From a virus (Duplodnaviria; Heunggongvirae; Uroviricota; Caudoviricetes), in the IMG/VR virus record IMGVR_UViG_2609460125_000012: a DNA stretch of 5,564 bases; one strand, written 5' to 3'. The notes beneath the pieces were generated by a model, which was not told the origin of the DNA, ran no database searches, and was given only the letters and a program-made list of their open reading frames with translations. Numbering within the stretch: the first letter of the stretch is position 1; each line of letters opens with the position of its first letter. Of the stretch, positions 1 to 5,564 are shown piece after piece. A program made the translations under genes and the position numbers.

Positions 1-51
1 CTGCATGACAAGGTCATCGGGCATTATCTGAACATAAAACACTATCAGTAA
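1..51 (+). CDS. insB: IS1 transposase InsB, C-terminal end (partial; 5' end outside window)
   Basis: In-frame translation [16 protein letters not shown] with TAA stop at 49-51, 15 bp inside the IS1 terminus. Confidence 0.85.
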   Translation: MHDKVIGHYLNIKHYQ

Positions 52-66
52 GTTGGAGTCATTACC
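1..66 (+). mobile_element. IS1 insertion sequence, right (insB-proximal) terminus; body of element lies upstream of the window
   Basis: Bases 1-51 read in frame as ...[16 protein letters not shown]-stop, which I recognise as the InsB C-terminus, followed by the IS1 terminal inverted repeat gttggagtcattacc ending at 66. Bases 1-66 are the exact reverse complement of 5363-5428. Confidence 0.9.
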
Positions 67-254
67 GAATCGGGCAATGGCCATGCGATACCGGATGCAA
101 GAAATCGCTGAAAAAGCGTATGTATTGTGGAATGACTGAGACCCAGACGCTGAGCGATGGCCCGGATGGTCAGTTTATCTTCAAATCTTAAACGCAGGGC
201 ATCAGGCAAATAAGAACGGAAGCAGGGAATATCTTTTGTTGTCTGGGAATTCAT
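67..254 (-). pseudogene. Transposase-like HTH protein, N-terminal 62 codons only; reading frame runs into IS1 (ORF 45..254)
   Basis: Translation MNSQTTKDIPCFRSYLPDALRLRFEDKLTIRAIAQRLGLSHSTIHTLFQRFLASGIAWPLPD contains a classic helix-turn-helix (TIRAIAQRLGLSHSTIHTLFQR) of the kind seen in IS30/IS21-type transposase N-termini. The frame continues into IS1 sequence and stops at 45, so the gene is interrupted. Confidence 0.4.
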
Positions 255-352
255 CGTTCGTGTCCATCAATATAGATGGGCGCGATTGTTGCCAGACAGG
301 ACAATTTTCACAAGACGTCGCTGATGGGGCGCTTACCGTAATGATGGCGACA
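67..352 (-). mobile_element. Unidentified IS-like element, left end (possibly IS21-family-like), truncated by the IS1 at 66
   Basis: On the minus strand a TG-initiated sequence (tgtcgccatcatt...) starts directly after the holin stop codon. It carries three CCCATC(A/T)-type direct repeats within about 100 bp, then an ATG at 254 opening an HTH-containing ORF. This layout resembles an IS end with transposase binding repeats; family assignment is inference. Confidence 0.35.
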
Positions 353-860: not shown

Positions 861-935
<75 letters not shown>

Positions 936-938
936 ATA

Positions 939-1014
<76 letters not shown>

Positions 1015-1016
1015 AC

Positions 1017-1093
1017 TGGACCGCCACCGGGGACTCGAACCTCGCACACTCAACTTAAAGGGTTGACGCTCTTTCCTGATGAGCTAGTGGCGG
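1017..1093 (-). tRNA. Atypical tRNA or pseudo-tRNA, anticodon position reads UUU (Lys-like); C33, C1:G72, U73
   Basis: Reverse complement CCGCCACTAGCTCATCAGGAAAGAGCGTCAACCCTTTAAGTTGAGTGTGCGAGGTTCGAGTCCCCGGTGGCGGTCCA has a perfect 7-bp acceptor, perfect D-stem GCTC/GAGC, perfect anticodon stem TCAAC/GTTGA and GGTTCGAGTCC T-arm (one A.C mismatch). The anticodon loop is CCUUUAA, so the near-universal U33 is replaced by C. Confidence 0.5.
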
Positions 1094-1094
1094 T

Positions 1095-1170
1095 TGGTGG
1101 CCCTTGCTGGATTTGAACCAGCGACCTGGCGATTATGAGTCGCTCGCTCTCACCACTGAGCTAAAGGGCC
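1095..1170 (-). tRNA. tRNA with CAU anticodon, most similar to tRNA-Ile2 (lysidine type, ileX-like) rather than elongator Met
   Basis: Reverse complement GGCCCTTTAGCTCAGTGGTGAGAGCGAGCGACTCATAATCGCCAGGTCGCTGGTTCAAATCCAGCAAGGGCCACCA is a canonical cloverleaf with anticodon loop CUCAUAA. It is close to my recollection of E. coli ileX (GGCCCCTTAGCTCAGTGGTTAGAGCAGGCGACTCATAATCGC...). Confidence 0.8.
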
Positions 1171-1274: not shown

Positions 1275-1305
1275 CAAAAAACCCGCTTGTGGGCGGGTTT
1301 TGTTT
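1275..1305 (-). terminator. Rho-independent terminator downstream of the Q-like gene (tR'-like); hairpin is bidirectional
   Basis: Stem acccgc (1281-1286) / gcgggt (1293-1298) with loop ttgtgg. On the minus strand the hairpin is followed by a U5-6 run (plus-strand A-run 1276-1280); on the plus strand it is followed by tttgtttgcttt. Confidence 0.6.
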
Positions 1306-1351
1306 GCTTTGGCCATCACGTACAAAATCGGCAAAGTATCAGATTTGCATG

Positions 1352-1380
1352 AATATATGCCTTTTAATCTACTTTTGCAA
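1352..1380 (-). promoter_or_regulatory. Candidate sigma70 late promoter (pR'-like) overlapping the 3' end of the Q-like gene
   Basis: Minus strand reads TTGCAA (1380..1375), a 17-nt spacer, then TATATT (1357..1352). The predicted start near 1345 lies about 70 nt upstream of the terminator at 1275-1305, the arrangement expected for a Q-dependent pR'/qut/tR' unit. Motif match only. Confidence 0.35.
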
Positions 1381-2059
1381 CACTTTGCTTTGAAAATGCC
1401 GTCTTTTTTTTTGAACGTGTTCTCATTACAAACAATAAAGCCTCACTATCCAGTCGGTGAAAAATGTGTTTCATTGCAACCCAGTGACGAGTAAATGTTT
1501 TGGACCAGTTTTTAGTTGTCACTCCCGCCAGTAATGCCAGCTCCTGGTATTCATAACCTTCCCCACCAAAAAGTTCTGCTTTTACTGCCTGCGCCGCCAG
1601 CCAGATTAATTTTTTCAGGCGTTCCTGCGTTTTCCCTGCAATTTTTCTGGTACCGGATTGAGCATTAAATTCATTCCACGCCCACTGTGTTATCGCGATC
1701 TGATATTCCCAACAAATACTCCCGCTGTAACACCACAACAACCAGGCTTTATAGTGCTCTTCAAGAGACAGAACAGCCCGCCGCCACGATGATGTCGAAA
1801 ACTCAACCGGACTGACCAGAGGAATTGACGTCCCCTTCGCCAGCGATTGCTTTCCCGGGATTGGTGGATTATCCCGCGTTATCATTTTTCCAGTCACTTC
1901 ATCGCGGTACCGGATTTTTTTACGCCTGTAACGCCCTGTATCGAACATGGCATTCTCTTGCCAGGCTTCAAGCTGACCTTTTGTTGCCCCACTCAAATCA
2001 GCGGTGGCGATAATGAGCTGCTCACGCACAAACTGTAAATACTGGTTATTCATGCGCAC
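1364..2059 (-). CDS. Putative late-gene antitermination protein Q-like (231 aa); function assigned mainly by position
   Basis: ORF 1364..2059 lies immediately downstream of rusA (10-nt overlap) and immediately upstream of the promoter/terminator pair, tRNA array and holin, which is the canonical lambdoid Q position. It has a C-terminal HTH-like segment (ELALLAGVTTKNWSKTFTRHW). I could not match it to lambda Q or Q21 from memory. Confidence 0.5.
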   Translation of the reverse strand: MRMNNQYLQFVREQLIIATADLSGATKGQLEAWQENAMFDTGRYRRKKIRYRDEVTGKMITRDNPPIPGKQSLAKGTSIPLVSPVEFSTSSWRRAVLSLEEHYKAWLLWCYSGSICWEYQIAITQWAWNEFNAQSGTRKIAGKTQERLKKLIWLAAQAVKAELFGGEGYEYQELALLAGVTTKNWSKTFTRHWVAMKHIFHRLDSEALLFVMRTRSKKKTAFSKQSVAKVD

Positions 2060-3754: not shown

Positions 3755-3825
3755 CTGTTTTCTCTGCTGGCGCAGCAGGTGCCAGTTGTTCAGGCTGACG
3801 GATGGATTGTAAACCAGAACGACCA

Positions 3826-3853
3826 GAAAAAACAAAACCCGCCGAAGCGGGTT
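3826..3853 (-). terminator. Rho-independent terminator at the 3' end of the hok mRNA
   Basis: Minus strand reads aacccgc-ttcg-gcgggtt (a UUCG tetraloop hairpin) followed by ttgttttttc; plus-strand arms are acccgc 3837-3842 and gcgggt 3847-3852. Confidence 0.7.
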
Positions 3854-3921
3854 AAGTGCGGGTGCGTTGAGGATGCCTGACACATCAGCGGTGGCGAGGG
3901 ATTTCTCCCCCGCCGGGTCTC

Positions 3922-4077
3922 TTACTCCTCAGGTTCGTAAGCTGTGAAGACAGCGACCTCCGTCTGGCCGGTTCGGATTCGTACCTCGCAGAGGTCTTTC
4001 CTCGTTACCAGTGCCGTCACTATGACGGTTAAACAGATGACGATCAGGGCGATTAACATCGCCTTTTGCTGCTTCAT
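3922..4077 (-). CDS. hokD: Hok/Gef-family type I toxin (51 aa), HokD/RelF-like
   Basis: Translation MKQQKAMLIALIVICLTVIVTALVTRKDLCEVRIRTGQTEVAVFTAYEPEE matches my recollection of HokD (RelF). AAGGAG Shine-Dalgarno sits 8 nt upstream (minus strand). The ORF track's 70-aa version starts at an in-frame upstream ATG (4134). Confidence 0.9.
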   Translation of the reverse strand: MKQQKAMLIALIVICLTVIVTALVTRKDLCEVRIRTGQTEVAVFTAYEPEE

Positions 4078-4281
4078 AGCCTGCTTCTCCTTGCCTTTCG
4101 GCACGTAAGAGGCTAACCTACATGTGTTCAGCATGGATTGAGCCTCAGATTAATGTTAAGCGTCTTGCAGGACGCGTAATGTTAACTGGGGCTTTTCTCT
4201 ATCTGCCTTTTGGTGTTCATGCCTGAGACAGATAGCCTCAAGCACCCGCAGTCATTCTACTTAACTAAGATTTCCCTGCAA
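4078..4281 (-). promoter_or_regulatory. hok mRNA leader with candidate promoter, 5' tac-like element and mok-equivalent start
   Basis: Minus-strand -35 TTGCAG (4281..4276), 16-nt spacer, -10 TAGAAT (4259..4254). The predicted 5' end tgcgggtgcttgaggc resembles the plasmid R1 hok mRNA 5' end as I recall it. An upstream ATG at 4134 sits at the position mok occupies in R1. The 5' segment (about 4236-4250) is complementary to the 3' segment cctcaacgcacccgca near 3855-3875. Confidence 0.5.
4126..4195 (+). ncRNA. Candidate Sok-like antisense RNA (coordinates approximate)
   Basis: On the plus strand, TTGCCT (4091-4096), a 17-nt spacer, then TAACCT (4114-4119) form a promoter-like pair antisense to the mok/hok translation initiation region. 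A downstream hairpin gcgtc-ttgcag-gacgc lies at 4160-4175. This matches the position of sok in hok/sok loci. Inferred, not verified. Confidence 0.35.
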
Positions 4282-4336
4282 ACCGTTTTTGTCCGGCACA
4301 GTAAATATCCAACTAAACCAATAGCGTTCGCTGTAT

Positions 4337-4516
4337 TTACCGCCAGTATTCAATGCACATGACCGCCATGAACACCCCTAAAAAAAGGGCATTTATATGT
4401 CCAAACATTAATATCAAAACATCAATTTTTTCCATATACCTTGCTGTGAAGATGATGGGCATACATGATGCGAACAACCAGAACGCAACAAACAAAAACT
4501 GCAATGCGTTTTTCAT
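4337..4516 (-). CDS. Hypothetical small hydrophobic peptide (59 aa, two predicted TM segments) in an AT-rich island
   Basis: Frame MKNALQFLFVAFWLFASCMPIIFTARYMEKIDVLILMFGHINALFLGVFMAVMCIEYWR with AGGGGG Shine-Dalgarno about 6 nt upstream of the ATG at 4516. The surrounding region (about 4340-4700) is markedly AT-rich, so this could also be a chance ORF in a regulatory region. Confidence 0.25.
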   Translation of the reverse strand: MKNALQFLFVAFWLFASCMPIIFTARYMEKIDVLILMFGHINALFLGVFMAVMCIEYWR

Positions 4517-4728
4517 TATTCCCCCTACAATCAATGTGCAATAACATTTAAACACACCTCAATTTGGCCGGACATATAAATATCTAAACCAGAAAAAATC
4601 ACTTACATAGCGTTACAAACTCTTTAGTCTAAATACTCATCGTAAAACATTCCCCATACTTATCAGTCCGTTCCGCGCCAGGTAGCTTATTGCCTTATCT
4701 GGCAACCTATAATCAGGTTTCCGCTTTT

Positions 4729-5362: not shown

Positions 5363-5564
5363 GGTAATGACTCCAACTTACTGATAGTGTTTTATGTTCA
5401 GATAATGCCCGATGACCTTGTCATGCAGCTCCACCGATTTTGAGAACGACAGTGACTTCCGTACCAGCCTTGCCAGATGTTGTCTCAGATTCAGATTATG
5501 TCGCTCAATGCGCTGAGTGTAACGCTTGCTGATAACGTGCAGCTTTCCCTTCAGGCGTGATTCA
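5363..5564 (-). mobile_element. IS1 insertion sequence, right terminus, inverted relative to the copy at 1-66; body continues beyond window end
   Basis: ggtaatgactccaacttactgatag... from 5363 is the IS1 terminal inverted repeat. 5363-5428 is the exact reverse complement of 1-66, and the internal sequence continues as IS1-like insB-region sequence to 5564. Confidence 0.9.
5378..5564 (-). CDS. insB: IS1 transposase InsB, C-terminal part (partial; 5' end outside window)
   Basis: Reverse complement of 5378-5428 encodes ...[16 protein letters not shown]-stop, identical to 1-51. The frame stays open to the window edge. Confidence 0.85.

What the first reader, a model, noticed from the sequence alone, without database searches (positions are those of the whole stretch)
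3826..4281. Apparently complete hok/sok-type type I toxin-antitoxin locus with long-range 5'-3' complementarity
Beyond the 51-aa Hok toxin, the locus appears to retain the full regulatory architecture: a promoter, a 5' leader resembling the plasmid R1 hok mRNA 5' end, a mok-position start codon, an antisense promoter placed like sok, and a 3' segment complementary to the 5' end, all closed by a UUCG-loop terminator. As far as I recall, hokD in E. coli K-12 is fused behind relBE and lacks these upstream elements, so this would be an intact standalone version. Unlike R1 mok, the upstream ATG here is in frame with hok and would give a 70-aa extended Hok.
Basis: partly seen in the sequence, partly recalled or inferred. 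Interest (0 to 1): 0.55.

Follow-up and report, generated by a model that had tools for sequence, protein, structure and literature searches.

The report
Intact prophage hok/sok toxin-antitoxin locus
This is a complete copy of a well-known small toxin gene (hok) with its antisense-RNA antidote (sok), the same cassette already annotated in Shiga-toxin phage 933W and tested experimentally in phage Sp5, so it is real but ordinary.

Summary
On the minus strand, window 4282-3826 carries a full hok/sok transcription unit.

- **Parts present:** promoter, a 5' leader (Rfam RF01794, 118.9 bits), a mok-position ATG, the 51-aa Hok, a hairpin after the stop codon, a 3' segment complementary to the 5' end, and a UUCG-loop terminator. 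A convergent Sok gene lies at 4126-4196 on the plus strand.
- **Folding:** the predicted fold of the 420-nt mRNA pairs 4247-4236 with 3872-3860 (z = -7.8). This end-pairing holds at the same position across the hok family, with compensatory changes.
- **Comparison with K-12:** K-12 hokD shares only window 3828-4091, and relE replaces the leader.
- **Novelty:** none. The cassette is about 94% identical to the annotated mokW/hokW/sokW of phage 933W. The Sok region differs at one base. The published Sp5 probes and the promoter-mutagenesis primer match exactly. At least 80% of a 621-bp stretch around the locus is present in 1771 of 5426 complete E. coli genomes.
- **In-frame 70-aa Mok:** this is shared with mokW and K-12 mokC.
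- **Source:** most likely a Shigella flexneri defective lambdoid prophage bounded by inverted IS1 copies.

Verdict: already known, low interest.

The parts
4254..4282 (-). hok/mok mRNA promoter: -35 TTTGCA (4282-4277), 17-nt spacer, -10 TAGAAT (4259-4254)
   Evidence: Consensus scan, 9 of 12 matches. It aligns with the equivalent hexamers upstream of 933W hokW and R1-type hok. The promoter scan alone is not significant (1 found, 1.0 expected); homology carries the weight.
4072..4247 (-). hok mRNA 5' leader, from the inferred +1 (G4247) to the hok start codon
   Evidence: Rfam RF01794 'sok', 118.9 bits, E = 1.6e-27, model positions 1-157 of 157. The model is written on the hok-mRNA sense strand and ends at the hok AUG. 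There is a 16-nt insertion in the second hairpin relative to the consensus, also present in 933W.
4236..4247 (-). 5'-terminal element GGGUGCUUGAGG (tac-like). It pairs with the 3' element in the full-length RNA, or with AAGCCC(C) at about 4194-4189 in the isolated 5' domain.
   Evidence: Full-length minimum-energy fold. The isolated 5' domain 4247-4189 folds into the alternative stem, and that stem is part of the Rfam consensus structure.
4109..4146 (-). Sok-target hairpin. It holds the mok AUG (4134-4132) in its stem and has the 7-nt loop CUGAACA, which begins with the YUNR-type sequence CUGA.
   Evidence: Local fold, -13.4 kcal/mol; part of the Rfam structure. The loop and upper stem are the most variable stretch among otherwise near-identical copies.
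4091..4119 (+). Sok promoter: -35 TTGCCT (4091-4096), 17-nt spacer, -10 TAACCT (4114-4119)
   Evidence: Read directly from the sequence. The region is identical to Sp5 sequence: probe YO-597 matches 4089-4118 exactly. Primers YO-421/422 from the Sp5 paper, which I take to be the pair that built the promoter-less sokW mutant, flank and replace this -10. That mutant lost antitoxin activity.
4126..4196 (+). Sok antisense RNA gene, about 71 nt: an unpaired 5' tail, then a long hairpin, then GGGGCUUUUCUCU
   Evidence: The 933W sokW feature maps to 4126-4196 and is 98.6% identical, with one loop difference. Fold: -31.5 kcal/mol, z = -5.2, first 9 nt unpaired. The Sp5 Northern probe YO-592 matches 4126-4155 exactly.
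3922..4134 (-). mok-position ORF, 70 aa, in frame with hok (a 19-codon N-terminal extension)
   Evidence: ORF list. Same length and frame as the annotated mokW of 933W and as mokC of K-12.
3922..4077 (-). hok toxin gene, 51 aa, with Shine-Dalgarno GGAG at 4090-4087
   Evidence: 100% identical to K-12 HokD, 92% to HokW, 82% to HokC, 41% to R1 Hok. Pfam HOK_GEF 3e-23. RefSeq names the same gene hokD.
3893..3914 (-). Stable hairpin just after the stop codon (GGCGGGGGA-GAAA-UCCCUCGCC). It is the likely stopping point for 3' trimming.
   Evidence: Local fold, -18.8 kcal/mol, z = -4.3. It occupies the same position as the GC-rich hairpin after the stop codon of R1-type hok. The role in processing is inferred.
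3860..3872 (-). 3' element CCUCAACGCACCC (fbi-like), complementary to the 5' end
   Evidence: Paired with 4247-4236 in the minimum-energy fold. Starts 49 nt after the stop. Equivalent complementary elements start 47-58 nt after the stop in most of the 24 distinct arm pairs recovered across the family, several with changes on both sides.
3826..3853 (-). Intrinsic terminator: 7-bp stem, UUCG loop, U tract
   Evidence: Terminator scan. Local fold, -13.8 kcal/mol, z = -5.6.

Best explanation
[quoted passage not shown] It is a self-contained transcription unit of about 440 bp sitting in a defective lambdoid prophage.

The likely mechanism follows the R1 and Sp5 paradigms.

1. A weak constitutive promoter makes a stable hok mRNA of about 420 nt.
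2. In this mRNA the 5' end (4247-4236) is paired to a 3' element (3872-3860). The RNA is therefore closed, untranslatable, and inaccessible to Sok.
3. Slow 3' trimming back to the hairpin after the stop codon removes the 3' element.
4. The 5' end then refolds into its local stem. This exposes the mok translation start and the Sok-target hairpin.
5. A stronger convergent promoter (TTGCCT-17-TAACCT) makes the unstable 71-nt Sok RNA. Its single-stranded 5' tail pairs with the target loop over the mok start. This blocks mok translation, and with it the coupled translation of hok, and marks the duplex for RNase III.
6. When Sok synthesis stops, the 51-aa Hok is made, inserts into the inner membrane, and kills or lyses the cell.

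What is shown here: all the sequence elements, their homology, and the predicted pairings. What is inferred from close homologues: transcription, 3' processing, toxicity and the biological trigger.
For: - Rfam leader match at 118.9 bits over the full model length.
- Hok is 100% identical to K-12 HokD and matches HOK_GEF at 3e-23.
- The mRNA is 94.7% identical to 933W hokW over 398 nt, and the Sok region is 98.6% identical. The annotated mokW, hokW and sokW features map onto the window ORFs and the antisense gene.
- Three Sp5 oligonucleotides match the window exactly: the Sok Northern probe, the hok probe, and a sokW-promoter mutagenesis primer.
- In Sp5, HokW is toxic and sokW neutralises it. 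Mutating the sokW -10 abolishes protection. Both RNAs were seen on Northern blots (PMC8621323).
- 5'-3' end pairing appears in the minimum-energy fold at z = -7.8. An R1-type hok mRNA folds with the same kind of 5'-3' end pairing.
- End pairing is kept across the family with compensatory changes, for example GGGUGCC/GGCACCC against GGGCGCC/GGCGCCC, and GGCGCUU/AAGCGCC.
- The alternative 5' stem and the target hairpin both fold locally.
- No insertion sequence or frameshift interrupts the unit. The nearest IS1 end is at 5363.
Against: - No expression data exist for this genome.
- The promoter scan is not significant on its own (1 found, 1.0 expected).
- The minimum-energy fold of a 3'-trimmed RNA (4247-3886) did not reproduce the textbook activated structure. 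It showed a small 5' hairpin instead.
- From memory of Pedersen and Gerdes 1999, echoed in bioRxiv 10.1101/2025.08.07.668861: several chromosomal hok loci did not give post-segregational killing even when they looked intact.
- The carrier prophage is truncated by IS1, so the phage-release role shown for Sp5 cannot apply here as such.
Confidence: 0.9

Rival explanations
1. The locus looks intact but is a silent relic. It would be transcribed too weakly, or never activated, to have any effect in this host, like several chromosomal hok loci of E. coli.
For: - Chromosomal hokA, hokB and hokC loci were reported not to mediate post-segregational killing (summarised in bioRxiv 10.1101/2025.08.07.668861).
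- The prophage around the locus is decayed. IS1 copies bound it at both ends, and on the left only the holin remains of the lysis cassette, next to an IS66-type accessory fragment.
- Degenerate copies exist elsewhere. One example is L009, which lacks the 5' element.
Against: - Every regulatory element is conserved relative to the experimentally active Sp5/933W locus. The differences fall in loops or are structure-compatible.
- The toxin is 100% identical to HokD.
- An intact toxin gene without a working antidote would be counter-selected, so conservation of both argues for activity.
Confidence: 0.1
2. Biological role 1 (the molecular identity is not in question): the cassette acts as an addiction module that stabilises the prophage remnant. 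Cells that delete the segment lose the short-lived Sok but keep the long-lived hok mRNA, and die.
For: - This is the classic R1 hok/sok behaviour (from established knowledge, also summarised).
- The architecture needed for delayed activation is all present: a closed stable mRNA and an antisense RNA that I assume to be unstable by analogy.
- The 5.3-kb segment lies between inverted IS1 copies, which invites rearrangement.
Against: - Chromosomal homologues tested so far did not show post-segregational killing.
- There is no direct test of this for hokW-type loci. The Sp5 study reports a different role.
Confidence: 0.35
3. Biological role 2: a helper of prophage-induced lysis, or an abortive-infection defence. 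Shut-off of host or prophage transcription, by induction or by a superinfecting phage, removes Sok and releases Hok.
For: - In Sp5, mitomycin C causes RecA-dependent loss of sokW RNA and production of HokW. Deleting the locus halves phage release.
- R1 hok/sok on a high-copy plasmid reduces T4 plating (cited).
Against: - In the window, only the holin survives of the lysis cassette on the left side, so this remnant probably cannot produce phage.
- Hok showed no enrichment near defence systems.
Confidence: 0.4

Closest known systems
mokW/hokW/sokW of Stx2 phage 933W (AF125520) and Sakai prophage Sp5
   Same: - Same cassette, with the mRNA 94.7% identical over 398 nt and the Sok region differing at one base.
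- Same 70-aa in-frame Mok and 51-aa Hok, with the same promoters.
- Same 5' and 3' pairing elements.
- Published Sp5 oligonucleotides match the window exactly.
   Different: - Hok differs at 4 C-terminal residues (TAYEPEE here, VDYESEK in HokW).
- The sequences diverge just after the 3' pairing element, so 933W lacks the UUCG-loop terminator at this position.
- The genomic position differs. Here the cassette lies in the nin-like region next to the rem-like gene and the DUF968 gene. In 933W it lies near the right end of the phage genome.
hokD (relF) of E. coli K-12, Qin prophage
   Same: - Identical 51-aa toxin.
- 98.9% identical DNA over window 3828-4091, covering the Shine-Dalgarno sequence, the coding region, the hairpin after the stop, the 3' pairing element and the terminator.
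- Similar prophage neighbourhood (rem, DUF968 gene ydfU, Q antiterminator).
   Different: K-12 lacks everything upstream of window 4091: the hok promoter, the 5' pairing element, the Sok target, the mok start, and the Sok -10 and gene. relE abuts the hok Shine-Dalgarno sequence instead. The window carries the undisrupted form.
hok/sok (parB) of plasmid R1
   Same: - Same order of parts and same predicted logic: 5'-3' end pairing, a leader matching the same Rfam family, a Sok gene convergent over the mok start, a hairpin after the stop, then the 3' pairing element and a terminator.
   Different: - Hok is only 41% identical, and DNA similarity is limited to short stretches.
- R1 mok is in the +1 frame relative to hok, whereas here it is in frame.
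- The Sok hairpin here carries a 16-nt insertion.
- R1 is a plasmid locus; this one is in a prophage.
hokC/mokC/sokC (gef) of E. coli K-12
   Same: - Same subgroup: HokC is 82% identical.
- mokC is annotated in frame with hokC with the same 19-codon extension (MLNTCR...).
- The 5' element GGGUGCUUGAGGC is the same.
   Different: - hokC is at a core-chromosome position.
- In K-12 the IS186A annotated just downstream of hokC coincides with the absence of a recognisable 3' pairing element. That the insertion removed it is my inference. The window locus is undisrupted.

Membership tests
[quoted passage not shown] | Small (about 50 aa) hydrophobic Hok/Gef toxin | tested here: met
   51-aa ORF at 4077-3922. 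HOK_GEF 3e-23, 81.6 bits against a cut-off of 22. 100% identical to HokD.
[quoted passage not shown] | Conserved structured 5' leader of the hok mRNA | tested here: met
   RF01794 at 118.9 bits against a gathering score of 59, over the full model length.
[quoted passage not shown] | Overlapping upstream reading frame (mok) whose start lies in the Sok target | tested here: met
   ATG at 4134 inside the target hairpin 4146-4109. It corresponds to the annotated mokW start. It is in frame with hok, as in mokW and mokC and unlike R1.
[quoted passage not shown] | Convergent antisense Sok gene with its own promoter and hairpin terminator, complementary to the mok start region | tested here: met
   Sequence-level test only. 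4126-4196 (+) equals the annotated sokW with one mismatch. The promoter TTGCCT-17-TAACCT lies within Sp5-identical sequence: probe YO-597 covers 4089-4118, all but its last base. The fold has a free 5' tail plus a hairpin.
[quoted passage not shown] | Long-range pairing of the mRNA 5' end with a 3' element (tac/fbi) | tested here: met
   A 12-bp helix with one bulge in the minimum-energy fold. 0 of 200 shuffles reach its energy, and it is conserved with compensatory changes across family loci.
[quoted passage not shown] | Alternative pairing partner for the 5' end, allowing refolding after 3' trimming | tested here: inconclusive
   The isolated 5' domain folds into the Rfam stem, GGGUGCUU with AAGCCC. 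The global minimum-energy fold of a trimmed RNA gave a different 5' hairpin.
[quoted passage not shown] | Sok actually transcribed, unstable, and able to neutralise Hok; Hok toxic | not testable with these tools
   Shown for the near-identical Sp5 locus (PMC8621323), not for this genome.
K-12-type truncated hokD (relBE-hokD fusion) | relE immediately upstream of the hok Shine-Dalgarno sequence, with no leader or sok | tested here: not met
   The window has the full leader. Similarity to K-12 stops at about 4091. No relE-like ORF lies upstream.

The most novel reading that the evidence does not exclude
Co-resident hokD/W-type copies may be kept functionally separate by divergence confined to the stretch of about 20 nt where Sok first contacts its target. 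This stretch covers the target loop, the mok start and the Sok 5' tail (window about 4139-4120). Each Sok would then control only its own hok.

In one S. flexneri genome, three copies are almost identical through the rest of the leader. At this spot they read CUCAAUCCAUGCUGAACACAUGU, CCCAAUCUAUGUCUCACAAAUGU and CCAAUUUCAUGCUUUGCACAUGU.

A second reading that is not excluded: the in-frame 70-aa Mok is itself a functional, N-terminally extended Hok isoform.
Probability: 0.35. Interest if true: 0.3.

Novelty: already known. Interest (0 to 1): 0.08.

Why it matters
It matters little beyond correct annotation. RefSeq labels only the 51-aa hokD coding sequence in these genomes. The sok RNA, the mok frame and the mRNA boundaries are left unannotated, so the window is a useful reminder that the intact form of 'hokD' is widespread. 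At least 80% of a 621-bp stretch around the locus is present in 1771 of 5426 complete E. coli genomes, and K-12's relBE-hokD fusion is the derived, truncated state. The locus could serve as a natural comparison for studies of hokW/sokW function in a defective rather than an inducible prophage.

Tried and rejected
1. An exact-match search for the left IS1/prophage junction in species-representative genomes found nothing. The likely source was inferred instead from a 99.93% match of 1401 nt to S. flexneri CP182556.1 (L011).
2. A duplex prediction between 110-nt upstream and 140-nt downstream windows first timed out. It then gave over-extended, uninformative duplexes with z values near zero. I replaced it with a 13-nt 5' arm against the 3' UTR, which gave clean results.
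3. The global fold of a 3'-trimmed mRNA did not reproduce the canonical activated structure. Only the local fold of the 5' domain did, so that membership row is left as inconclusive.
4. A weak isrK-like Rfam match over the hok 3' UTR (27 bits against a gathering score of 50) was judged to reflect hairpin and terminator resemblance and was not pursued.
5. I considered and rejected the idea that the in-frame Mok is a new feature, because mokW and mokC are annotated the same way.
6. I considered and rejected the idea that this is the K-12-type truncated hokD.

Full report
**What is there.**

The finding lies on the minus strand. Reading from 4282 down to 3826, the sequence carries the following parts.

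- A sigma-70-like promoter: TTTGCA, 17-nt spacer, TAGAAT, at 4282-4254.
- A 176-nt leader matching Rfam RF01794 over the whole model, at 118.9 bits against a gathering score of 59, E = 1.6e-27. The Rfam model is written on the hok-mRNA sense strand and ends at the hok AUG.
- An ATG at 4134 that opens a 70-aa frame, and an internal ATG at 4077 that opens the 51-aa Hok, with the stop at 3922.
- A stable hairpin just after the stop codon, 3914-3893.
- The segment CCUCAACGCACCC at 3872-3860.
- A UUCG-loop intrinsic terminator at 3853-3826.

The toxin matches Pfam HOK_GEF at 3e-23. It is 100% identical to K-12 HokD, 92% to HokW of phage 933W, 82% to HokC and 41% to R1 Hok.

**The long-range pairing.**

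The 420-nt transcript (4247 to 3828) folds to -173 kcal/mol, z = -7.8, and no shuffle folds as well. In that fold the first 12 nt, GGGUGCUUGAGG, pair with 3872-3860 with one bulged C. An R1-type hok mRNA folded the same way also shows pairing between its 5' end and a 3' element downstream of the stop.

To see whether the pairing is conserved rather than accidental, I collected hok loci from species-representative genomes. For each, I folded the 13-nt 5' arm against the 170 nt after the stop.

- In most of the 24 distinct arm pairs recovered, a complementary element starts 47-58 nt after the stop. Many of these reach an energy that few or no shuffles reach.
- The arms differ between subfamilies in a compensatory way: GGGUGCC/GGCACCC against GGGCGCC/GGCGCCC in hokB-type loci, GGCGCUU/AAGCGCC in R1-type loci, and GGGUGCUUGAG/CUCAGGCACCC in Enterobacter loci.
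- Disrupted loci behave as expected. K-12 hokC, where IS186A is annotated just downstream, shows no 3' element.
- K-12-type hokD copies lack the 5' element.

The isolated 5' domain (4247-4189) folds so that GGGUGCUU pairs with AAGCCC instead. This is the stem in the Rfam consensus and provides the alternative partner needed for refolding. A global fold of a 3'-trimmed RNA did not reproduce it, so that step remains inferred.

**The antisense gene.**

The sokW RNA annotated in 933W (AF125520) maps to window 4126-4196 on the plus strand. Identity is 98.6%, and the single difference lies in the hairpin loop.

- Upstream lie TTGCCT (4091-4096), a 17-nt spacer and TAACCT (4114-4119).
- The RNA folds with nine unpaired 5' nucleotides followed by a long hairpin and a U-rich tail, at -31.5 kcal/mol and z = -5.2.
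- Its 5' tail is complementary to the loop CUGAACA and the mok AUG in the target hairpin 4146-4109.

**Relation to what is known.**

Similarity to K-12 hokD covers only 3828-4091, at 98.9%. Upstream of that, K-12 has the 3' end of relE. K-12 therefore lacks the hok promoter, the 5' element, the Sok target, the mok start and the Sok gene.

The intact form is not new, however.

- Phage 933W has carried the annotation mokW (70 aa, in frame), hokW (51 aa) and sokW.
[quoted passage not shown] HokW arrests growth and sokW counteracts it. Mutating the sokW -10 removes protection. Both RNAs are seen on Northern blots. Mitomycin C causes RecA-dependent loss of sokW and production of HokW (PMC8621323).
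- Three oligonucleotides from that paper match the window exactly: the sokW probe, the hokW probe, and one of a primer pair that I take to be the sokW-promoter mutagenesis pair.
- The in-frame Mok is shared by mokW and by K-12 mokC, whereas R1 mok and K-12 mokB are in the +1 frame.

The cassette is common.

- A 621-bp query around it hits 4951 of 5426 complete E. coli genomes.
- 1771 of those genomes cover at least 80% of the query, usually under the RefSeq name hokD.
- It also occurs in 79 phage records and on plasmids.
- A recent survey reports enrichment of hok in prophages (bioRxiv 10.1101/2025.08.07.668861).

**Context.**

The window is closest to Shigella flexneri CP182556.1, at 99.93% over 1401 nt, and to E. 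coli FDAARGOS_944. In the direction of hok transcription, the genes run as follows.

- A 140-aa hypothetical protein, then hok/sok.
- A rem-like gene, a DUF968/HNH protein, RusA, and antiterminator Q.
- Four tRNA genes.
- A phage-21-type holin.

The segment 67-5362 is bounded by inverted IS1 ends.

Similarity to other hokD/W-type copies in different contexts begins near 4258-4290 and ends near 3828-3857. The shared unit is therefore essentially the transcription unit itself. This fits a self-contained 'moron'-type insertion, which is my inference.

**Mechanism and role.**

I commit to the R1/Sp5 model, with these steps.

1. A closed, stable full-length mRNA.
2. Slow 3' trimming to the hairpin after the stop.
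3. Refolding of the 5' end.
4. Sok binding at the target loop, which blocks mok translation and hence hok translation, followed by duplex cleavage.
5. Hok synthesis and membrane damage once Sok disappears.

The sequence elements and pairings are shown here. Transcription, processing and toxicity are inferred from the near-identical Sp5 locus and from HokD. Because the host prophage is truncated, the phage-release role described for Sp5 is unlikely here. Stabilising the remnant, or defence by abortive infection, are the plausible roles, and neither was tested.

**Verdict.**

The locus is a member of an already described and experimentally validated system, so novelty is nil and interest is low.

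The only mildly interesting side observation concerns near-identical copies of the cassette, three of which sit in one S. flexneri genome. They differ mainly in the stretch of about 20 nt where Sok first contacts its target. This could keep co-resident systems from interfering with each other.

Noticed in passing
window 1-66 and 5363-5564: Both ends of the window look like IS1 termini (recognised from memory) in inverted orientation. The 66-nt arms are 100% complementary. They enclose a 5296-bp prophage fragment, an arrangement that could move or invert as a unit.
   Followed up: partly
window 4120-4139; L013 and L020 (S. flexneri CP182556.1), L014, L017, L021: Among hokD/W-type copies that are otherwise almost invariant through the leader, variation is concentrated in the Sok-target loop, the mok start and the Sok 5' tail. 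Three different versions co-reside in one S. flexneri genome, which may keep the paralogous Sok RNAs from cross-reacting.
   Followed up: partly
window 861-1170, minus strand: Four tandem tRNA genes (CAT anticodon, called Met by ARAGORN and Ile by RefSeq; then Lys-UUU, Thr-UGU and Gly-UCC) lie between the Q antiterminator and the holin. This is the position where Stx phages (from memory) carry their own tRNA clusters. The Lys tRNA scores lower than the others (44 bits).
   Followed up: no
window 45-336: A 69-aa helix-turn-helix ORF resembles the N-terminus of an IS66-type accessory protein TnpA (2.5e-22, below the curated cut-off). It is cut off by the IS1 end. Similarity to the related E. coli prophage starts only at 337, so the phage lysis genes beyond the holin have been replaced.
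   Followed up: partly
window 1364-2059, minus strand: The Q antiterminator reading frame is intact here (231 aa, Phage_antiter_Q 1.9e-91). In the closest E. coli relative, FDAARGOS_944, it is annotated as frameshifted.
   Followed up: no
window 3832-3913 and 1276-1349, minus strand: There are weak matches, below the gathering scores, to the Salmonella prophage sRNA families isrK and isrJ (22-27 bits). One lies over the hok 3' UTR and terminator, and one lies over the terminator-like hairpin between the tRNA cluster and Q. The two sites also share a 21-nt imperfect inverted repeat (1292-1312 and 3823-3843).
   Followed up: no
L009 (E. coli CP178302.1) and L076 (S. flexneri CP182556.1): Decayed relatives exist. 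L009 shares the window's flanks at 93% identity but has lost the 5' pairing element. In L076, a hokB-type locus, the leader is replaced by unrelated sequence that I did not identify.
   Followed up: no
window 4337-4555, minus strand: A 72-aa hydrophobic ORF lies just upstream of the hok promoter. It has no family match and no RefSeq annotation in the closest genome. It may be a small membrane protein or a chance ORF in AT-rich DNA.
   Followed up: no
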